Positions 809 to 64,000 of a DNA stretch of 64,000 nt are shown here, piece by piece. The stretch is taken from positions 1 through 64,000 of the IMG/VR virus record IMGVR_UViG_3300045391_005708; one strand, written 5' to 3'. Position 1 is the stretch's first letter. Every line of letters starts with the position of its first letter. The position numbers were made by a program, and so were the translations under genes. The stretch is from a virus. Taxonomy: Duplodnaviria > Caudoviricetes. The notes beneath the pieces are model-generated. The model had not been told where the DNA came from, made no database searches, and saw only the letters and a list, made by a program, of their open reading frames with translations.

Positions 809-818
809 GAGGAAACCG
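809..818 (+). promoter_or_regulatory. Start-associated motif GAGGAAACCG (RBS)
   Basis: Exact 10-mer, 2 nt before ATG 821. Confidence 0.75.
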
Positions 819-3348: not shown

Positions 3349-3358
3349 GAGGAAACCG
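3349..3358 (+). promoter_or_regulatory. Start-associated motif GAGGAAACCG (RBS)
   Basis: Exact 10-mer, 4 nt before ATG 3363. Confidence 0.75.
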
Positions 3359-3773: not shown

Positions 3774-4960
3774 GCGACCACGGCCGGGCGCACGCCCACC
3801 TGTCCCCCTCGTCCGCGGAGCGCTGGCTCGCCTGCCCCGGGTCCGTCAGGCTGTCCGACAGCCTGGAGCGGTCCGACGACAGCGGCAGCGTCTTCGCGGA
3901 GGAGGGGACCAGGGCACACACGCTGGCCTACCTGGAGGCGTCCAGGGCGTTCGACCTCATGGACGAGCGCGACTACCTGACGCACAAGGCCGCCTGGCTC
4001 CGGCAGGCCGAGGCCCACGGCGACGACGTGGAGGAGATGGAGGAGGGCGCCCGGGAGTACGTCACCGTGCTCCAGGACATCCACTCCGACCTGGCCGAGG
4101 ACGGCCCCGTGCAGGTGCTCCTGGAGCGCCGCGTGGACCCGGCCGTGCCCGGCTCCTGGGGCACCGCCGACGCGATCCTGGTCGGCATCCGGCGCATCGC
4201 CGTGGTCGACTACAAGTTCGGCAGGGGCGTGGTGGTCGAGGTCGAGCGGAACCCGCAGGTGATGCTGTACGGCCTGGGCGCCCTCGAACTCATGGACCTG
4301 CTGGGGACCATCGAGGACGTGGACCTGGTGGTCGTGCAGCCGCGGGCGGGCGGGATCTCGCGGTGGAGCCTGTCGGCCGACGACCTGAAGGGCTGGCGAG
4401 AGACTGTGGTCCTGCCGGTCGTGGCCGAGACGAGCATGCCGGAGGCCCGCCTGGTGCCCGGCGACGCGCAGTGCCGGTGGTGCCCGGCGGCCGGGGTCTG
4501 CAAGGCCCGCGCGGCCTGGGTGACGCGCCGCGACTTCGGCGACCCGGACCTGATGGACGAGGACGACCTGGCCGACGCCGTGCGGCGGCTCAAGGAGATC
4601 CGCGACTGGTGCAACGCCGTCGAGGCCGAGGCGTTGAGGCAGGCGTACTCGTACGGCGCGCGGCTGCCGGGCCTGAAGGTCGTGATGTCCGGCGGCAAGC
4701 GGACCATCAAGGACAAGGCGGCCGCGATCGACCGCCTGGTGGCGGCGGGGTTCAGCCGCTCCAAGGTGGCCCGCGAGGACACGCAGACCCTGAGCGCCCT
4801 GGAGCGCCTGGTCGGCGCCGAGCGCCTGGTGGCGGTCCTGGGGGACCTCCTGGTGCGCAGCCCGGGCTCGCCGAGCCTGGTGCCCGAGGACGACCGCCGG
4901 GAGGCCGTGACCAGCCTCTCCCAGGCGGAGACAGACTTCCGGGAGGACCCGGAGGAGTGA
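3770..4960 (+). CDS. DUF2800 / Cas4-like PD-(D/E)XK exonuclease
   Basis: HAHLSPSSAERWLACPGS, GT.AH, WGTADA, VVDYKFG.G, NPQ.MLYGLGA, QCRWCPA. Confidence 0.9.
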   Translation: MSDHGRAHAHLSPSSAERWLACPGSVRLSDSLERSDDSGSVFAEEGTRAHTLAYLEASRAFDLMDERDYLTHKAAWLRQAEAHGDDVEEMEEGAREYVTVLQDIHSDLAEDGPVQVLLERRVDPAVPGSWGTADAILVGIRRIAVVDYKFGRGVVVEVERNPQVMLYGLGALELMDLLGTIEDVDLVVVQPRAGGISRWSLSADDLKGWRETVVLPVVAETSMPEARLVPGDAQCRWCPAAGVCKARAAWVTRRDFGDPDLMDEDDLADAVRRLKEIRDWCNAVEAEALRQAYSYGARLPGLKVVMSGGKRTIKDKAAAIDRLVAAGFSRSKVAREDTQTLSALERLVGAERLVAVLGDLLVRSPGSPSLVPEDDRREAVTSLSQAETDFREDPEE

Positions 4961-4985
4961 TGGACAGAGATAGAGAGGTTCAGAG

Positions 4986-5576
4986 ATGAGCGACGACGAC
5001 CTGAGGATGACGACCGGCAAGGTCCGGCTGTCCTTCCCCTTCCTCTTCAAGCCGCGCAGGCGCGAGGGGCAGGACCCGAAGTACAGCGTCATGCTCCTGA
5101 TCGACAAGGGCGACGAGAAGACGATCAAGACGCTGCGGCGCCTGGAGGCGAAGTGCCTCAAGGACAACGCGGCCAGCCTGTTCGGCATCAAGTCCGGCGA
5201 GCCCAAGTTGGGCCAGCGGGGCCTGGCGCCGTCCATCATCAAGGACGGCGACGAGGACGGCACGGCGGAGGACTACCCGGAGCGCGCGGGGTGCTACTAC
5301 ATGACCGTGAACGCGACCGAGGACTTCCCGCCGAAGATCGTGGACCGCAACGTGGAGCCCATCATCGACCAGAGCGAGGTCTACAGCGGGGTCCACGCCC
5401 GGGTGTCCCTCCAGGCGTTCGCGTACAAGCGCGACGAGAAGAAGGGCATCTCGTTCGGCCTGGGCAACGTCCAGGTCTACACGGGCGAGGGCGAGTCGCT
5501 GGGCGGCGGCGGCCGCAAGGCCGAGGACGACTTCGAGGCGATCCCCGACGAGGGCGGCGACGAGTCCCTGCTGTGA
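4986..5576 (+). CDS. DUF2815 family single-stranded DNA-binding protein
   Basis: VRLSFPFLF.P, KYS..LLIDK, IKDGD, VYSG..ARV, GISFGLGNVQ, acidic tail. Confidence 0.9.
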   Translation: MSDDDLRMTTGKVRLSFPFLFKPRRREGQDPKYSVMLLIDKGDEKTIKTLRRLEAKCLKDNAASLFGIKSGEPKLGQRGLAPSIIKDGDEDGTAEDYPERAGCYYMTVNATEDFPPKIVDRNVEPIIDQSEVYSGVHARVSLQAFAYKRDEKKGISFGLGNVQVYTGEGESLGGGGRKAEDDFEAIPDEGGDESLL

Positions 5577-5608
5577 GCAGTACCCGGTAGCGCGGCCCGC
5601 GGCAGGCG

Positions 5609-5617
5609 TGCTATCAT
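5609..5617 (+). promoter_or_regulatory. Extended -10 promoter TG-c-TATCAT
   Basis: TGnTATCAT in the intergenic gap; implies a start near 5624. Confidence 0.6.
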
Positions 5618-5623
5618 TGGGGG

Positions 5624-5679
5624 CAAGCGCCGCGCGCGGCCGGGTGGTTTCGGTTTCCTCCCCGCCCGCGCGGCGCTTG
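5624..5679 (+). ncRNA. Candidate hairpin sRNA or 5' leader with anti-GAGGAAACCG loop
   Basis: 13-bp perfect stem CAAGCGCCGCGCG (5624-5636) / CGCGCGGCGCTTG (5667-5679); loop contains CGGTTTCCTC (5651-5660). Confidence 0.5.
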
Positions 5680-5708
5680 TCTCCCCCCGAACCGAGAGGA
5701 GAGACGCC

Positions 5709-5966
5709 GTGGCCGTGCAGTACGTTCGAGTAGAGGTCGAGGAGGGCCGGGCCTACACCTACACGTGGGACGGCGACCGGCCCCTGGGGCGGGGCGACCG
5801 GGTGGTCCTGCCCGGCAACATCGTCCACGACCGGGAGTTCGAGGGTACGGTGCTCCGCACCCTGACCGACGAGCAGGTGGCCGACGACGGGTACAAGGGC
5901 GAGTACAAGGGCGTGCTCCGGCGCGCCGAGCCCGTCCTGGCGCCCGAGGACGCGGACTTGCTGTGA
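5709..5966 (+). CDS. Hypothetical protein
   Basis: GAGAGGAG RBS, GTG start, 85 aa. Confidence 0.7.
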   Translation: MAVQYVRVEVEEGRAYTYTWDGDRPLGRGDRVVLPGNIVHDREFEGTVLRTLTDEQVADDGYKGEYKGVLRRAEPVLAPEDADLL

Positions 5967-6286
5967 GCAGCGCCGCGCCTCACGAGGACTGCCACCGCTG
6001 CGGGGGTCCAAACGTCGTGTGGTTCGCGCCGTCACCGCTGTGGAATCTCGTGATGCGCGGCAACGACATCAACGGGGACGCCCTGTACGACGACCTGGTG
6101 TGCGTGCCTTGCTTCATCGCCCTGGCGGAGGAGGCGGGAGTCTCCGGGAAGTGGCGGCTGAGCGTCGACCCCGAGCCGGACGGCCTGGTCAAGGTGACGC
6201 CGAGCGGACGGGTCTGGGACGAGGAGAAGAACCTCTGGCGCGAGCCCGAGGCCGCGCCGCACCCGGACACGATGATCGGACGCTGA
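5963..6286 (+). CDS. Hypothetical protein (CxxC..CxxC)
   Basis: GTGA overlap; DCHRCGG...CVPCF. Confidence 0.65.
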   Translation: MSSAAPHEDCHRCGGPNVVWFAPSPLWNLVMRGNDINGDALYDDLVCVPCFIALAEEAGVSGKWRLSVDPEPDGLVKVTPSGRVWDEEKNLWREPEAAPHPDTMIGR

Positions 6287-6287
6287 C

Positions 6288-8471
6288 GTGCCTGTCCTGG
6301 ACATCGACATCGAGACGTACTCCGAGGTCGAACTCAAGAAGGCGAACGTCTACGCCTACGTAGAGGACCCGTCGTTCCAGATCATCATGTGCGGGTGGTC
6401 CCTCGACGGCTCGCCCGTCGAGGTCTGGGACTCGTACGAGGAGTTCCAGGACCGGCTGAGGGAGATCCCCGGCCTGTGGGACCCGGACGTGACCAAAGTC
6501 GCCCACAACGCGGGCTTCGAGCGGGTGTGCTTCAGCGCCTACGCCGGGCTGCCGGTGGGCGAGTACCTGCCGCCCGAGCACTGGTTCGACACCGCCGCCC
6601 TGGCGGCCCAGAAGGGCCTGCCCCGGAGCCTGGACTCCCTGGCCCGCGCCGTCAGGGTCGACCCCAAGGACAGCGCGGGCACGAGGCTGATCAACCTGTT
6701 CAGCAAGCCGTACCGCGGCCGCCGCGTGATGCCCGAGGAGAGGCCCGATGAGTGGGCCGACTTCCGCCGGTACTGCGGTCAGGACGTGAGCACCATGCAG
6801 CAGGCCCGGCCCATGCTGAAGGGGTGGCCCAGGGACGGCTTCGAGCGCCGCGTGTGGAACCTGGACCAGCGCATCAACGACCGCGGCATGAGGGTCGACC
6901 TGGACCTGGCCAGCAAGGCCCGGGCGCTGGCCCACGCGAACACGGAGGACCTGTCCCGCCGCGTGACCCGCGACACCGGGATCGAGAACCCGAACAGCAC
7001 CGCGCAGATGCTGGAGTGGCTGCGGGACAACGGCTGCCCCGGGATGCCGAACCTCCGGGCCACGACCGTCTCCGAGTACTTGGAGATGTCGTCCACTCCC
7101 CCCGCGGCCCGCGCCGTGCTGGAGGCCCGGGAGGAACTGGCGCTGGTCGCGCACCGCAAGTTCGAGGCCGCCCTGCGCGGGGCGTCCTCGGACGGCCGCC
7201 TGCGCGGCCAGTTCGTGTACCACGGCGCACACACCGGCCGCTGGGCGGCCAAGGGCGTCCAGGTGCACAACATGCCCCGCCTCGCCTTCACCAACGAGGT
7301 CACGGGCGACTACGACGAGGACTGGGAGGAGTGCGCCCTCCGGGCGATCCTGGCCGGTCTGCCCCAGAGCCAGGAGAACCTGAAGCGGGCCGTGCGGCCG
7401 CTGTTCACCGGCCCCATCGCCACGAGCGACTTCAGCGCGATCGAGGCCCGCGTGCTGGCCTGGCTGGCCGGTGAGGGCTGGGTCGCCGAGGCGTTCAGGC
7501 GCGACGAGGACATCTACGTCACGACGGCCGAGCGCATGGGCGGCATGACCAGGCAGCAGGGCAAGATCGCGGTCCTGGCCTCCGGCTACCAGGGCAGCGC
7601 GGGCACGTACCGCAAGATGGGCTACGGCGGCCGCCGCTGCCCGTGCGACGTCAAGGTGCAGAAGGCCGTCGTCGTGGCGGACGGACCCAACGCTGGCAAG
7701 TGGATCCCCGAGGACAACAGGTTCGACGCTGGCAAGGTGATCGCGGAGATGCCGGACGACGGCCTCGGCGACGTGTGCCAGGAGGCGTTCCAGGAGCACC
7801 TGGGACGCATCGAGCGCAAGGCCAAGCGCGAGGGCTGGACCCTGGCCGAGCAGCGGGCCACCATCGCGACCGACCTCGCCGAGCACACGGCCGAGCGGCG
7901 CCGGTCCGGCGGGACGCACAGGTGCGACACGCAGATCATGGAGGTAGTCAACGCCTGGCGGGCCGCCAACGAGAACATCGTGGCGTTCTGGTACGACCTC
8001 CAGAAGAAGTTCTGGACCGGGGGCCGGGTCGGCGAGCACCTGTCCGTCGAGGTCCACGGCTCGTGGCGAGTCATCGTCCTGCCGTCCAGGCGGCGCCTCA
8101 TGTACCGGAACGTCAAGCGGTACAAGAAGACCAAGGTCGTGGACGAGGAGACGGGCGAGAAGGCGGAGCGCTGGGTCCTGGAGTACACCACCGGGGTCGG
8201 CAAGCCGGAGGAGACGTACGGCGGCAAGTTGGCCGAGAACGTCACCCAGGCCGTCGCCAGGGACATGCTGGCCGACGCGATGCTCCGCCTGGAGGACGAG
8301 GGCTATCTCCTGGTCGGGCACGTCCACGACGAGGCTATCGCCGACGCCGACGACCTCGACCAGGAGCGACTGAACAGGATGCGGCAGATCATGAGGACCC
8401 CGCCGGAGTGGGCGGCCGACATGCCGATGGACGCGAGCATCGCCGTCCTGAAGCGCTACAGGAAGGACTGA
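6288..8471 (+). CDS. polA: Phage DNA polymerase, family A, with 3'-5' exonuclease
   Basis: ExoI DIETYS, ExoII AHNAGFER, ExoIII YCGQD; motif A DFSAIEARV, motif B RQQGKIAVLASGY, motif C HVHDE. Confidence 0.95.
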   Translation: MPVLDIDIETYSEVELKKANVYAYVEDPSFQIIMCGWSLDGSPVEVWDSYEEFQDRLREIPGLWDPDVTKVAHNAGFERVCFSAYAGLPVGEYLPPEHWFDTAALAAQKGLPRSLDSLARAVRVDPKDSAGTRLINLFSKPYRGRRVMPEERPDEWADFRRYCGQDVSTMQQARPMLKGWPRDGFERRVWNLDQRINDRGMRVDLDLASKARALAHANTEDLSRRVTRDTGIENPNSTAQMLEWLRDNGCPGMPNLRATTVSEYLEMSSTPPAARAVLEAREELALVAHRKFEAALRGASSDGRLRGQFVYHGAHTGRWAAKGVQVHNMPRLAFTNEVTGDYDEDWEECALRAILAGLPQSQENLKRAVRPLFTGPIATSDFSAIEARVLAWLAGEGWVAEAFRRDEDIYVTTAERMGGMTRQQGKIAVLASGYQGSAGTYRKMGYGGRRCPCDVKVQKAVVVADGPNAGKWIPEDNRFDAGKVIAEMPDDGLGDVCQEAFQEHLGRIERKAKREGWTLAEQRATIATDLAEHTAERRRSGGTHRCDTQIMEVVNAWRAANENIVAFWYDLQKKFWTGGRVGEHLSVEVHGSWRVIVLPSRRRLMYRNVKRYKKTKVVDEETGEKAERWVLEYTTGVGKPEETYGGKLAENVTQAVARDMLADAMLRLEDEGYLLVGHVHDEAIADADDLDQERLNRMRQIMRTPPEWAADMPMDASIAVLKRYRKD

Positions 8472-15858: not shown

Positions 15859-15917
15859 CCAACCGCCGGTCCGTCCGTGGGGACGGGCGCAACCGGCGAC
15901 GAGAGGAAACCCTGGAA

Positions 15918-17568: not shown

Positions 17569-17599
17569 CCCGGGCGGACGGGAAAACCTCGCCAAAGAC

Positions 17600-17628
17600 T
17601 TGCGTTTCTGACCTGGACGTGTTATGCT
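17600..17628 (+). promoter_or_regulatory. Housekeeping-sigma-type promoter TTGCGT-17-TATGCT
   Basis: Canonical spacing in an AT-richer intergenic stretch; GAGGAAACCG RBS at 17649-17658. Confidence 0.65.
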
Positions 17629-17658
17629 TCTGCCAACAGCACGACCGAGAGGAAACCG

Positions 17659-17898
17659 ATGAACGAGAACCTGACCTCGCCCCGCTTCCCCCTCAAGGGG
17701 CAGCCCGTGGGCCGCAACCTGTACCCCGTCTACGACGGCGACGCCCTCCTGGGCTTCGTCGTGAGCCGCGGCCGCATGTGGACCCACGTCGCGGTTGCCG
17801 ACCCGGCCGACGTGCCGCAGTCGTACGACCTCGTCTTCTCCGCGCCGACCAAGCGCGCGGCGATGACCAACCTGTCCTCCGCCACCAAGAACGCCTGA
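17659..17898 (+). CDS. Hypothetical protein
   Basis: GAGGAAACCG immediately before ATG. Confidence 0.75.
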   Translation: MNENLTSPRFPLKGQPVGRNLYPVYDGDALLGFVVSRGRMWTHVAVADPADVPQSYDLVFSAPTKRAAMTNLSSATKNA

Positions 17899-17910
17899 GA
17901 GGAAACCGAG

Positions 17911-18720
17911 ATGCCCAGAGTCAACACCGTCGACCGAGCCCGCCAGCGCTACGCGATGGTCCCGAAGACCGACGAGGAGGGCAACGCCCTCTACACCGAG
18001 CAGACCAAGAAGGGCAAGACCTTCCGCCGCGCGCTGACCGTGCAGGACCGGACCCGGCCCCTGCCGAACCTCCGGTGCGACTTCCCCGGCTGCGCGATCG
18101 ACGGCGGGGAGATCCTGGTCGGCAAGCCGTATAAGTTCATCACGGTCCGGCCCGGCGGCCGCGGCTCCGTGCAGAAGAACCGGCACCCCGAGCACCCGTC
18201 CTGGCAGCCCTGGGAGTACAGCAACAGCGTGCGCGCCGAGGCCGCCCGCCTGGTGCACGACATGGGGGAGACGGTCAACTCGTACGAGTTCACCGCCGAG
18301 GAGGACTTCGACAGCCTGCGCGACGAGTTGGCCGAGCAGGCCCAGGCGTTCCTGGACGAGCGCGAGGAGGCCGTGGACAACATGCCCGAGGGGCTCCAGG
18401 ACGGCTCCGAGGCGGCCGAGTACCGCGACTCCGCCGAGGAGTGGGTCCAGGAGATCGAGAACGCCGACAGCCCCGACGAGGAGTACCACGCCGAGTGCGA
18501 GGACTGCGAGGAGGGCAAGGTCGAGTGCGACAGCGACTTCCACGACGGCACTGACCAGGGCGAGGAGCAGTGCCCGGAGTGCGGCGGGACCGACACCAAC
18601 CCCGAGGACGTGGACTGCGCGTCCTGCGACGGCACCGGCCGGACCGAGGAAGTGAACGAGGACTGGGCCGAGGCCGCCCGCGAGGCGCTGCAGGAGGCGG
18701 TCGACTCCCTCCAGATCTGA
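17911..18720 (+). CDS. Acidic hypothetical protein with DnaJ-like CxxCxGxG Zn-finger repeats
   Basis: GAGGAAACCG at 17899-17908; CEDCEEG, CPECGGT, CASCDGTG. Confidence 0.75.
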   Translation: MPRVNTVDRARQRYAMVPKTDEEGNALYTEQTKKGKTFRRALTVQDRTRPLPNLRCDFPGCAIDGGEILVGKPYKFITVRPGGRGSVQKNRHPEHPSWQPWEYSNSVRAEAARLVHDMGETVNSYEFTAEEDFDSLRDELAEQAQAFLDEREEAVDNMPEGLQDGSEAAEYRDSAEEWVQEIENADSPDEEYHAECEDCEEGKVECDSDFHDGTDQGEEQCPECGGTDTNPEDVDCASCDGTGRTEEVNEDWAEAAREALQEAVDSLQI

Positions 18721-21562: not shown

Positions 21563-21801
21563 CCGGCGCCCCCGACGTGCTCCAGGCCCTTGGCCTTGTT
21601 GCGGGTCAGGTGCACGGGGACGCCGACCAGGCCGGAGCCGACGATGCCCGCGACGACCCACTCGCCGAACTCCTTGAGGCTCGTGCCGCCGTCGTCAGCG
21701 ATCCACGACCCGAGTACGAGGACCACGAAGGTCAGCGCCGCGGCGACGTACGCCTTGGTGCTGGTCTGCGGGGTGCCCGGGGCGGGGCTGGGTGTGCTCA
21801 T
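21559..21801 (-). CDS. Putative holin
   Basis: KAYVAA..T....L...D.G.SL.E......G...G..V....N pattern of actinophage holins; follows the last tail gene; RBS GAGGAAACC abuts ATG. Confidence 0.7.
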   Translation of the reverse strand: MSTPSPAPGTPQTSTKAYVAAALTFVVLVLGSWIADDGGTSLKEFGEWVVAGIVGSGLVGVPVHLTRNKAKGLEHVGGAG

Positions 21802-21840
21802 GGTTTCCTCCTGCTGGGGGCGTCTCTGTCGGGTCCCATT

Positions 21841-59541: not shown

Positions 59542-59897
59542 TCCCCCTCCGCGGCCGCGAGCAGCGCCGTGTGCCAGCGGACGAACTCGGCCCCGCCGTC
59601 CGCGCCGGGGTTCTCCAGGCGCGTCCGGTGGGTCAGGACCAGGTGGAGCCACGTCGCGCGCCCGATCCGGTCGGACGGCATGCCCGGGTCGCCCGGGCAG
59701 GGGAAGCCGTCCCGCCAGCCGCGGCAGCGCTCGGGCGCCGCCGTCCCGCCGTGGAGCGGGCACCAGTCAGCCCGGGCGCCGTCGCCGTGCAGGGCGTGCG
59801 AGAACGGGTTCCGCCAGGCCCGGCCCGCCCGGAGGCGGTCGAACTCGTCCGCCACCCGGGACAGGGCCCGGTCCCCTGACCGCGCGTCCTGGCTCAC
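59538..59897 (-). CDS. Hypothetical protein (Cys/His-containing)
   Basis: GTGA overlaps at both ends. Confidence 0.55.
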   Translation of the reverse strand: MSQDARSGDRALSRVADEFDRLRAGRAWRNPFSHALHGDGARADWCPLHGGTAAPERCRGWRDGFPCPGDPGMPSDRIGRATWLHLVLTHRTRLENPGADGGAEFVRWHTALLAAAEGE

Positions 59898-60154
59898 TCC
59901 GCGGCCGCCTTCACCGCGCCGATCAGCCCGGCCACGCCGTTCCGCGGGATCCACAGGTCGGGGTGCGTCTCCCAGTCCTGGGCGACCTCCAGCACGCGGG
60001 CCAGCGCCAGGGCGTCCGGGTCCTCCCCGGCCGCGACCGTCTCCGCGACCGTCGTGTCGGGGTTCTCGGCCGCGTACGCCGCCGACACCACCCGGCCGGT
60101 GACGGCCGAGCGGAACAGGGTCCGCGCCCCGTCAGACGAGGGCGTCGTCGTCAC
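59894..60154 (-). CDS. Hypothetical protein
   Basis: FRSAVTGRVVSAAYAAENPDTTVAE motif. Confidence 0.55.
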   Translation of the reverse strand: MTTTPSSDGARTLFRSAVTGRVVSAAYAAENPDTTVAETVAAGEDPDALALARVLEVAQDWETHPDLWIPRNGVAGLIGAVKAAAE

Positions 60155-63959: not shown

Positions 63960-64000
63960 GGGTCCCGACCGGGCACCACCGAGAGGAAACCGATGACGGA

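What the first reader, a model, noticed from the sequence alone, without database searches (positions are those of the whole stretch)
5609..5679. Candidate phage sRNA whose loop is antisense to the shared RBS motif (one RNA, many targets)
Seen: an extended -10 (TGcTATCAT) places the start at about 5624, exactly where a perfect 13-bp stem begins. The apical C/U-rich loop carries CGGTTTCCTC (5651-5660), the exact complement of GAGGAAACCG. No minus-strand start codon follows this copy at RBS distance, so it is not itself an RBS. Inference: a ~56-nt RNA, free or as the 5' leader of the polA operon, occludes the RBS of the ParB-like, exonuclease/SSB-operon, sortase-substrate, 17659, 17911, 63993 and holin genes. 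This would act as an early-to-middle translational switch and possibly a lysis timer. I know of no described system of this form in actinophages.
Basis: partly seen in the sequence, partly recalled or inferred. Interest (0 to 1): 0.85.

Follow-up and report, generated by a model that had tools for sequence, protein, structure and literature searches.

The report
Phage leader hairpin with anti-RBS loop
Just before its DNA-polymerase genes, this uncultured high-GC phage and at least 14 relatives carry a promoter followed by an RNA hairpin; the hairpin's loop mirrors the 13-letter ribosome-binding tag these phages place before many genes, so it most likely holds translation down by RNA pairing, usually on its own message and perhaps on others.

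Summary
A perfect 13-bp stem (5624-5636 / 5667-5679) follows a TGn-extended -10 (5609-5617). Its loop carries TCGGTTTCCTC (5650-5660), the complement of an RBS word found 11 times on the + strand of the 80.8-kb genome and only here on the - strand.

The element is not chance. Fourteen related metagenomic phages keep the same promoter and hairpin at the same place, between the Gp2.5-like SSB gene and the polA operon. The stem covaries and the loop's 3' half is conserved.

The relatives change the reading. In 10 of 15 phages the RBS of the next gene on the same transcript is itself the module. It pairs with the loop over 9-15 contiguous bp in nine of them. There is one compensatory change (L273) and two G.U-compatible changes (L158). 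The best-documented partner is therefore in cis.

In this window the own RBS has diverged, and only 8 bp remain in a shifted register. Yet the loop's 3' half is 16/17 identical to L159, against 64-72% background. This keeps a trans role on the 11 module RBSs open (about 0.3).

No terminator follows the stem, so a discrete sRNA is unproven. There is no Rfam match. The closest analogues are P1 c4 RNA, 6C-type C-rich-loop sRNAs and cluster K SAS. This scan has noted similar anti-RBS hairpins on other phage DNA.

The parts
4986..5576 (+). Gp2.5-like ssDNA-binding protein gene, the last gene of the upstream operon
   Evidence: Pfam PF10991, E 2.5e-44. Its homologues anchor the element in the relatives.
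5577..5608 (+). Spacer after the SSB stop codon. It corresponds to a strong small hairpin in relatives that abuts the -10; the hairpin is weak in this phage.
   Evidence: Folds.
5609..5617 (+). Extended -10 promoter element TGC-TATCAT. The predicted start is at 5623-5625.
   Evidence: TA..AT is invariant in 12 aligned leaders. TGn is present in 13 of 15 hairpin leaders. The start position is inferred from standard spacing and is not mapped.
5624..5636 (+). 5' arm of the 13-bp stem
   Evidence: Covariation: 5 of 12 stem pairs show double changes, 98.6% of cells are paired, and the score exceeds 500/500 shuffles.
5637..5666 (+). 30-nt loop. Its 5' half carries the conserved GGGU, which pairs weakly with the CCU/CCC of the 3' half.
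5650..5660 (+). Anti-RBS word UCGGUUUCCUC, complementary to GAGGAAACCGA. The seed UCGGUUU lies in the apical loop 5648-5656.
   Evidence: It is 16/17 identical to L159 over 5650-5666, against 64-72% background.
5667..5679 (+). 3' arm of the stem
5680..5689 (+). Pyrimidine tract UCUCCCCCCG, a second anti-SD that pairs locally with the SD of the next ORF. It is not a U-tract terminator tail.
   Evidence: MFE fold. An equivalent tract complementary to the local SD is present in every relative.
5689..5705 (+). Own RBS region GAACCGAGAGGAGAGAC. The SD is GAGAGGAGAG, which is not the module. GAACCGAG can still pair with loop UUCGGUUU (8 bp including 2 G.U).
5709..5966 (+). First ORF of the replication operon, 85 aa of unknown function. 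Homologues start MQYVRVEV, so the in-frame GTG at 5715 is an alternative start. polA follows at 6288-8471.
809..818 (+). RBS module copy before the gene at 821
3349..3358 (+). RBS module copy before the first gene (3363) of the DUF2800-nuclease/SSB operon, with a promoter-like -10 upstream
17649..17658 (+). RBS module copy before the gene at 17659. It lies downstream of a TTGCGT...GTGTTATGCT promoter-like site.
17899..17908 (+). RBS module copy before the gene at 17911; it overlaps the upstream stop codon
63983..63992 (+). RBS module copy before the DUF4406 gene at 63993. Six further copies lie beyond the window, at genome positions 68691, 69364, 70909, 74642, 75466 and 79742.

Best explanation
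The element is the 5' leader of the replication operon (small ORF, then polA). It belongs to an uncatalogued RNA family of uncultured high-GC actinophage-like viruses.

A host-type extended -10 promoter starts transcription at the foot of a GC-rich hairpin, so the RNA begins with a protected stem. The hairpin displays, half in its apical loop, the complement of the group's standard 13-nt RBS module GAGAGGAAACCGA.

Across the family this loop pairs with the RBS of the first ORF on the same transcript, in a pseudoknot-type long-range helix of 9-15 bp. A second pyrimidine tract directly 3' of the stem forms a small local hairpin with the same SD. Together they hold down translation of the first ORF and, through coupling, probably of the polymerase genes behind it.

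In this phage the own RBS has changed to GAGAGGAGAGAC. The 3' tract now covers it, and only 8 bp of loop pairing remain in a shifted register. The loop still matches 11 of the 13 module positions.

Shown: the anatomy, the conservation, the stem covariation, and loop-to-own-RBS complementarity with one compensatory change.

Inferred: the start site, that pairing happens in RNA, that it represses translation, and what relieves it.
For: - Same promoter-hairpin at the same locus in 14 relatives whose SSB is 48-78% identical and whose GC is 61-73%.
- The -10 TA..AT is invariant.
- Stem covariation: 5 of 12 pairs carry double changes, and the score exceeds 500/500 shuffles and all slid controls.
- G.U pairs occur on the + strand only.
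- Contiguous loop:own-RBS helices: L125 15 bp, L154 14 bp; L128, L131, L158 and L273 13 bp; L272 11 bp; L157 and L160 9 bp.
- Duplex z-scores against shuffled loops are -2.8 to -4.4 in eight of the ten phages whose own RBS is the module.
- L273 shows a compensatory change: loop T to A together with own-RBS A to T at module position 13, while its other module copy keeps A.
- L158 has two A to G changes in its own RBS, both opposite loop U. This works in RNA but not in DNA.
- In L124 the loop and the own RBS both carry a 1-nt insertion at the same place.
- Where the own RBS is not the module, 3 of 5 loops are degraded: L121, L123 and L270.
- No terminator tail follows the stem.
Against: - In this window the loop:own-RBS pairing is weak: 8 bp with 2 G.U, and the duplex is no better than shuffled loops (z 0.1).
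- The loop's 3' half is nonetheless 16/17 identical between this phage and L159, which also lacks a module RBS in cis. Flanks are 46-72% identical. Something other than the own RBS therefore constrains the loop here.
- A cis-only role does not explain why the 13-nt module is kept letter-perfect before about a dozen unrelated genes per genome, although only GAGG can pair with 16S rRNA. That pairing estimate comes from my own knowledge of the actinobacterial 16S 3' end.
- A 13-bp helix between a hairpin loop and a site 9-16 nt past a 13-18-bp stem is sterically demanding and was not modelled.
- No transcript data exist.
Confidence: 0.45

Rival explanations
1. Trans-acting (or cis-plus-trans, c4-like) riboregulator. 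The hairpin RNA, either as the stable 5' end of the operon mRNA or as a processed fragment, is the reader of the RBS module. Its free seed UCGGUUU nucleates on AAACCGA, and the helix then spreads over GAGG. This occludes the RBS of the 11 module-bearing genes of this phage, most of which are promoter-proximal early genes. In relatives its own downstream gene is simply one of the targets.
For: - There are 11 exact targets and a single antisense copy per genome. The 77.8-kb relative shows 8 forward and 2 reverse copies, one reverse copy being the loop.
- The seed costs 0.01 kcal/mol to open, duplexes are -19 to -23, and net energy is about -6 to -15 kcal/mol.
- The loop's 3' half is conserved 16/17 between two phages that lack a module RBS in cis.
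- The module is kept letter-perfect before unrelated genes across phages of 61-73% GC, beyond what the SD needs.
- Loci with an intact loop have several modules, whereas loci with degraded loops or no hairpin have few or none.
- Cluster K1 mycobacteriophages independently show their single reverse SAS in a hairpin loop.
Against: - There is no terminator or defined 3' end, so no discrete sRNA is indicated.
- Nothing shows loop and distant modules changing together. Variant loops in L121, L124 and L270 are not matched by the other module copies.
- The one compensatory change tracks the cis RBS and not the trans copy.
- In phages whose own RBS is the module, intramolecular pairing should outcompete trans pairing.
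- The module-versus-loop co-occurrence rests on short contigs.
Confidence: 0.3
2. Protein-binding operator or RNase processing/stability element. The nearly invariant stem sequence (AGCGCCGCGCGG) and the loop would be recognised by a phage or host protein: a translational repressor, an autoregulator encoded in the operon, or RNase III. The resemblance of the loop to an anti-RBS would then be ancestral or incidental.
For: - Six of 12 stem pairs never vary across 12 leaders despite 61-73% GC genomes, and GGGU and UCGG in the loop are invariant. This is more sequence conservation than pairing alone needs.
- The element sits at the 5' end of an operon of small unknown proteins and a polymerase. 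This recalls the T4 gp32 and gp43 operators, a comparison from my own knowledge.
Against: - It does not explain the 13-nt perfect complementarity to the own RBS in most relatives.
- It does not explain the compensatory and wobble-compatible changes.
- No candidate RNA-binding domain was found in the neighbouring small proteins.
Confidence: 0.13
3. Intrinsic terminator or attenuator that ends the SSB operon, or a DNA-level hairpin or cruciform such as a replication-origin element between the SSB and polymerase genes.
For: - A GC-rich stem follows a stop codon.
- The element lies between replication genes.
- One relative (L128) has a UUCUUCUUCUUC tail.
Against: - A conserved promoter -10 lies between the stop codon and the stem.
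- The tool's terminator scan finds nothing here.
- Tails are C-rich rather than U-rich.
- G.U pairs and A-to-G changes opposite U fit RNA of the + strand and do not fit DNA.
- The arms lose their own palindromy but keep arm-to-arm pairing in L124, L160, L272 and L273.
Confidence: 0.07

Closest known systems
c4 antisense RNA of phages P1/P7 (immI operon; Rfam RF01695)
   Same: A structured RNA encoded at the head of an operon. Its loops pair with the RBS region of a gene further down the same transcript and block its translation, and it can also act in trans. The operon order c4-icd-ant and the C4 binding site are described in PMC8198154, citing Citron and Schuster 1990.
   Different: - No sequence or structure match to RF01695.
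- One loop here, against two recognition loops in c4.
- c4 is cut out by processing to a defined 77-nt RNA (my own knowledge). No processing signal is evident here.
- c4 controls an antirepressor for immunity, whereas this element heads a replication operon.
- The target word here is reused at about 11 genes.
Start-associated sequences (SAS) of cluster K mycobacteriophages (Pope et al. 2011, PMC3203893)
   Same: The RBS module behaves like an SAS.
- It is a 13-nt asymmetric word 0-7 nt before start codons.
- It occurs about 8-11 times per genome and almost always in one orientation.
- It is conserved across related phages in front of unrelated genes, and it extends beyond the SD.
- There is one reverse copy not tied to a gene start.
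- SAS function is still called unknown in 2024-2025 (PMC11373665, PMC12699233).
   Different: - The word differs: GAGAGGAAACCGA against GGGATAGGAGCCC.
- The phage group is different.
- No ESAS inverted repeats were seen.
- Here the reverse copy is shown to lie in a conserved hairpin loop that pairs with an adjacent forward copy. That has not been described for SAS.
6C/B11 sRNA of Actinobacteria (RF01066) and C-rich-loop sRNAs such as S. aureus RNAIII
   Same: Hairpin loops rich in C and U pair with G-rich SD regions of several mRNAs without a chaperone in high-GC Gram-positives (PMC6486639).
   Different: - No Rfam match.
- The element is phage-encoded.
- It has a single hairpin without a terminator.
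- Complementarity is 11-13 nt to a private RBS tag, not a short CCCC:GGGG contact.
RBS-sequestering leader structures and pseudoknots (E. coli rpsO/S15 operator, T4 gene 32 leader; own knowledge)
   Same: An intramolecular helix covers the SD of the first cistron.
   Different: - Those elements are protein-operated autoregulatory sites.
- Here the helix joins a hairpin loop to the whole RBS plus spacer over 13 nt.
- No effector is known.

Membership tests
Cis-acting RBS-sequestering leader (loop:SD long-range pairing) | The anti-SD and the SD lie on one transcript, with no terminator between them | tested here: met
   A conserved -10 lies 7 nt before the stem. No U-tract follows the stem. The ORF starts 30 nt after the stem. 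This is shown at sequence level only; the transcript has not been observed.
Cis-acting RBS-sequestering leader (loop:SD long-range pairing) | Complementarity covers the gene's own SD | tested here: inconclusive
   Relatives show 9-15 contiguous bp in 9 phages. This window shows only 8 bp including 2 G.U, in a shifted register that touches the 5' edge of the SD.
Cis-acting RBS-sequestering leader (loop:SD long-range pairing) | The two strands covary | tested here: met
   - L273 has a double change at module position 13.
- L158 has two A-to-G changes opposite U.
- L124 has matched 1-nt insertions.

These are few events, so the support is modest.
Trans-acting antisense sRNA with anti-SD loop (6C/RNAIII type) | A discrete small transcript with its own promoter and terminator | tested here: not met
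   The promoter-like -10 is conserved, but no intrinsic terminator follows the stem in any of the 15 leaders.
Trans-acting antisense sRNA with anti-SD loop (6C/RNAIII type) | An accessible loop complementary to the RBS of several mRNAs | tested here: met
   There are 11 exact 10-11-nt targets. The seed opens at 0.01 kcal/mol, and net energy is -6 to -15 kcal/mol.
Trans-acting antisense sRNA with anti-SD loop (6C/RNAIII type) | Match to the Rfam model RF01066 | tested here: not met
   The only hits up to E = 10 are two miRNA-precursor models and the Whalefall-1 sRNA model, all far below their gathering scores.
P1/P7 c4 antisense RNA (RF01695) | Encoded upstream of its target in the same operon | tested here: met
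   In phages whose own RBS is the module, the loop lies 35-45 nt upstream of the complementary RBS.
P1/P7 c4 antisense RNA (RF01695) | Rfam model match and the two-loop a'/b' architecture | tested here: not met
   No Rfam hit. The element has a single recognition loop.
P1/P7 c4 antisense RNA (RF01695) | Processed to a defined small RNA | not testable with these tools
   Needs RNA end mapping.
Start-associated sequence (SAS)-type RBS module | A 13-nt asymmetric word just upstream of many start codons, in one orientation, conserved before unrelated genes across related phages | tested here: met
Start-associated sequence (SAS)-type RBS module | The consensus GGGATAGGAGCCC of cluster K | tested here: not met
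   The module here is GAGAGGAAACCGA. It is an analogue and not a homologue.
Intrinsic terminator | A GC-rich stem immediately followed by a U-tract | tested here: not met
   The tail is UCUCCCCCCG, and the site is not reported by the terminator scan.

The most novel reading that the evidence does not exclude
The hairpin RNA is the missing reader of a start-associated RBS tag. On this reading, phages that stamp a private 13-nt word on the RBS of a set of early genes also encode one hairpin displaying the exact anti-word, and this RNA tunes translation of the whole tagged gene set in trans, as well as its own operon in cis. The same design seems to have arisen independently in cluster K1 mycobacteriophages. 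There the single reverse SAS sits in the 10-nt apical loop of a conserved intergenic hairpin. That would give the SAS puzzle, open since 2011, a testable answer in a culturable system.
Probability: 0.28. Interest if true: 0.85.

Novelty: new variant of a known kind. Interest (0 to 1): 0.6.

Why it matters
Actinophage genomes are known to carry conserved start-associated RBS words whose purpose has been unknown since 2011. This work shows a second, unrelated phage group with such a word. It also shows that the only antisense copy is a conserved, promoter-driven hairpin loop that pairs with an RBS, certainly with its own in most members.

This gives a concrete RNA-RNA mechanism to test for control of a phage replication operon, and possibly of a whole class of early genes. 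It also defines an RNA family absent from Rfam.

The parallel in cluster K1 mycobacteriophages could be tested directly in Mycobacterium smegmatis with existing phages and RNA-seq data.

If the role turns out to be cis only, the element is a tidy but ordinary example of RBS sequestration in a leader.

Tried and rejected
- **Close phage relatives in GenBank phages.** Megablast of 4900-6400 found nothing. tblastn with the SSB found only hits below 45% identity.
- **IMG/VR searches.** A scan with the SSB protein or a profile found one true relative, the 77.8-kb contig. A scan for the 14-mer CCGAGAGGAAACCG gave 117+ single chance hits and no multi-copy locus. A scan for the stem pattern gave 86 GC-rich hairpins, none with the loop word.
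- **Bacterial and archaeal genomes.** A scan for loop-word...module gave 120+ hits, but all are plain hairpins formed by the inverted 10-mer. None has the enclosing GC stem, so no prophage relatives and no host clue were obtained.
- **Rfam.** Nothing relevant at E up to 10.
- **Neighbouring proteins.** Pfam and PHROGs on the small neighbouring proteins gave no RNA-binding or other informative domain.
- **Whole-record search of metagenome relatives.** Most records are not held.
- **RNAduplex of the whole loop against downstream sequence.** G-rich:C-rich background pairing inflates the score, so it was used only as z-scores and backed by contiguous-helix counts.
- **Readings rejected.** A minus-strand RBS is rejected because no start codon follows. 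Two palindromic DNA operators in the arms are rejected because palindromy is lost in L124, L160, L272 and L273 while arm-to-arm pairing is kept. A terminator is rejected because there is no U-tract and a promoter sits in between.

Full report
**What the window is.** The window is bases 1-64000 of an 80,758-bp IMG/VR virus record with direct terminal repeats. Its GC content is 72.5%. No close relative exists among GenBank phages. Relatives carry WhiB, sortase and LysM genes, which fits an actinobacterial host. The host itself is unknown.

**The observation.**
- The finding lies in the 132-nt gap between a Gp2.5-like SSB gene (4986-5576, PF10991) and an 85-aa ORF (5709-5966). That ORF heads a run of small ORFs and a family A DNA polymerase gene at 6288-8471.
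- The sequence shows TGC-TATCAT at 5609-5617, then a perfect 13-bp stem (5624-5636 with 5667-5679), then a 30-nt loop.
- The loop contains TCGGTTTCCTC at 5650-5660.
- The complement GAGGAAACCG occurs 6 times in the window, against 0.06 expected and none of 100 shuffles. In the whole genome there are 11 copies on the + strand and 1 on the - strand, the last being the loop.
- Every + copy ends 0-7 nt before a start codon.
- Most + copies are the end of a conserved word ACCGAGAGGAAACCGA.
- Eight lie 35-45 nt downstream of a promoter-like -10; six of those also carry a TTGC -35 of the type TTGCATTT-N17-GTGTTATGATGG.
- No start codon follows the minus-strand copy.

**It is a conserved element.**
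- SSB homologues from metagenomes and their contigs gave 14 distinct relatives. Their SSB identity is 48-78% and their GC content 61-73%.
- All have the same arrangement after the SSB stop codon:
  - a small hairpin;
  - an extended -10, with TA..AT invariant in 12 aligned leaders and TGn in 13 of 15;
  - about 7 nt of spacer;
  - a 10-16-bp GC stem;
  - a 27-43-nt loop;
  - a pyrimidine tract;
  - an RBS and a start codon.
- The stem covaries. Five of its 12 pairs show double changes and 98.6% of cells are paired. The covariation score exceeds all 500 shuffles and all slid controls.
- G.U pairs in the lower stem and in the inner loop helix fit folding of the + strand RNA.
- Several relatives (L124, L160, L272, L273) lose the internal palindromy of each arm but keep arm-to-arm pairing. 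This argues against two DNA operator sites.
- Rfam has no matching family.

**What the loop pairs with.**
- The 3' half of the loop is conserved as (G)UCGGUUUCCUCUCC. This is the exact complement of the 13-nt word GAGAGGAAACCGA.
- All these phages use that word as an RBS for many genes: 8 copies in 20 kb of L125, 6 in L128, 3 exact copies plus variants in L131, and 8 forward copies in the whole 77.8-kb relative.
- In 10 of the 15 phages, the RBS of the very next gene, 35-45 nt downstream on the same predicted transcript, is that word.
- Contiguous loop:own-RBS helices:

| Phage | Helix length |
|---|---|
| L125 | 15 bp |
| L154 | 14 bp |
| L128, L131, L158, L273 | 13 bp |
| L272 | 11 bp |
| L157, L160 | 9 bp, with a 1-nt indel |
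| L124 | 7+6 bp |

- Three kinds of change support real pairing in cis:
  - L273 has loop ACGG instead of UCGG, and its own RBS ends CCGU instead of CCGA. Its other module copy keeps CCGA.
  - L158 has two A-to-G changes in its own RBS, both opposite a loop U.
  - In L124 both partners carry a 1-nt insertion at the same position.
- These events are few, so the support is real but modest.
- Every leader also has a pyrimidine tract directly after the stem that can form a small local hairpin with the same SD. The SD therefore has two potential masks.

**This phage is an atypical member.**
- In five phages (this window, L159, L123, L121, L270) the own RBS is not the module.
- Here it is GAGAGGAGAGAC, which pairs with the tract GUCUCCCCCC.
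- The loop keeps only an 8-bp, two-G.U match to GAACCGAG at 5689-5696. The loop:downstream duplex is no better than for shuffled loops (z 0.1).
- In three of the five phages the loop word is degraded: L121 has 3 nt replaced, L123 has CCUC changed to GCUC, and L270 has a 2-nt insertion. This suggests relaxed constraint once the cis partner is gone.
- This window and L159 tell another story:

| Region compared | Identity |
|---|---|
| SSB 3' end | 71% |
| Promoter region | 64% |
| Downstream ORF | 72% |
| 5' half of the loop | 6/13 |
| Tail and RBS | 15/29 |
| Both stem arms | 26/26 |
| 3' half of the loop | 16/17 |

- At about 70% background identity, 16/17 has a probability of roughly 0.02. 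This is my own binomial estimate. The anti-module word is therefore under selection in two phages that lack a module RBS in cis.

**Could it act in trans?**
- Pairing is thermodynamically feasible. The seed UCGGUUU lies in the apical loop and costs 0.01 kcal/mol to open, while the full 11-nt site costs 5.1.
- Duplexes with the 11 sites are -19 to -23 kcal/mol and target opening costs 2.7-8.9. The net is about -6 to -15 kcal/mol.
- The module is kept letter-perfect in front of unrelated genes across the group, although only GAGG can pair with the 16S 3' end (my own knowledge). Something else must read the rest of the word, and the loop is the only complementary sequence in the genome.
- Loci with an intact loop have several module copies. 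Loci with degraded loops or no hairpin have few or none. The contigs are short, so this is weak.
- Against a trans role:
  - No terminator follows the stem.
  - Variant loops are not matched by distant module copies.
  - The one compensatory change follows the cis RBS.
- I therefore rank a cis translational attenuator leader first (0.45) and a c4-like cis-plus-trans regulator second (0.30).
- A protein operator or processing site is third (0.13). The unusually invariant stem sequence is its main support.
- A terminator or DNA-level role is last (0.07).

**The target genes.** The module precedes the following genes:
- 821, phrog_5931, unknown function;
- 3363, first gene of the DUF2800-nuclease/SSB operon;
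- 17659 and 17911;
- 63993, a DUF4406 protein.

Beyond the window it also precedes 68707, 69376 (a 23-aa Cys-rich peptide), 70921, 74654 (hydrophobic, signal-peptide-like N-terminus), 75479 and 79755 (DUF932). No holin was recognised, so the lysis-timer idea has no support.

**Comparison with known systems.**
- The RBS word behaves like the start-associated sequences of cluster K mycobacteriophages (PMC3203893). Their function is still described as unknown (PMC11373665, PMC12699233).
- That paper notes a single reverse SAS in the K1 phages. I found that in Anaya this copy lies in a 385-bp intergenic region. RNAfold places CCUCCUAUCC in the 10-nt apical loop of a strong hairpin (z -4.0).
- The reverse copy is kept in Peanam and SgtBeansprout. 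Other subclusters have a CUUCCCUUCCC-type loop at the same hairpin.
- Mechanistically, the nearest described system is the c4 RNA of P1/P7, which is encoded ahead of its target RBS in the same operon (PMC8198154). The C-rich-loop sRNA 6C of Actinobacteria is also close (PMC6486639). Neither Rfam model matches.
- Earlier notes of this scan report anti-RBS hairpins in other phage groups. I treated those notes as leads only.

**Verdict.** This is a real, conserved, uncatalogued phage leader RNA with an anti-RBS loop. Cis pairing is the documented role in relatives.

Noticed in passing
L260 34800-34960 (Mycobacterium phage Anaya JF704106, record about 59,800-59,960): The single reverse-oriented SAS of cluster K1 phages (GGCCTCCTATCCC) lies in the 10-nt apical loop of a strong hairpin. 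The hairpin sits in a 385-bp intergenic region, downstream of a conserved promoter-like TTGGCG...TTTTAGACT and a first hairpin. The reverse copy is kept in Peanam and SgtBeansprout. Amgine, Krueger and Bryler have a CUUCCCUUCCC-type loop at the same hairpin. The region has blastn matches in 182 cluster K records, 150 of them over at least 80% of its length. I found no mention of this in the SAS papers I read.
   Followed up: partly
window 17590-17660; genome 68620-68710, 70840-70925, 74575-74660, 75395-75480, 79670-79760 (L394): A family of near-identical promoter-leader cassettes: TTGCATTT-N17-GTGTTATGATGG, then a 35-45-nt leader with a small hairpin, ending in ACCGAGAGGAAACCGA and a start codon. 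They stand before unrelated genes and are concentrated in the last 12 kb of the genome.
   Followed up: partly
genome 69376-69444 (L394 6376-6444): A 23-codon ORF with a perfect module RBS encodes a Cys-rich peptide with a CxxC...CxxC pattern. It may be a real mini-protein.
   Followed up: no
window 5709-5717: Homologues of the 85-aa ORF begin MQYVRVEV or MTQYV. The in-frame GTG at 5715 is therefore an alternative start to the GTG at 5709, although the SD spacing favours 5709.
   Followed up: partly
L274, L276, L281 and about 20 further loci (Bryobacterales MAG OZ252030.1): The inverted 10-mer pair CGGTTTCCTC...GAGGAAACCG, with a fixed 38-nt span, recurs many times in one Bryobacterales chromosome. 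This looks like a REP-like repeated hairpin element and is unrelated to the phage element.
   Followed up: no
L269 1139-1296: One SSB relative has a different, longer leader hairpin (16-bp stem GGCGCGAGCCGGATGC) at the same locus. Its loop also carries a pyrimidine-rich run, CUCCUUCUCUU. A C/U-rich loop at this position may therefore be more general than the exact word.
   Followed up: no
window 21801-21810 (-) and 15903-15912 (+): These are one-mismatch module copies (GAGGAAACCA and GAGGAAACCC). Both are at RBS distance from start codons, one on the minus strand behind a TAGAAT -10-like site. The tag is thus also used for a leftward gene.
   Followed up: no
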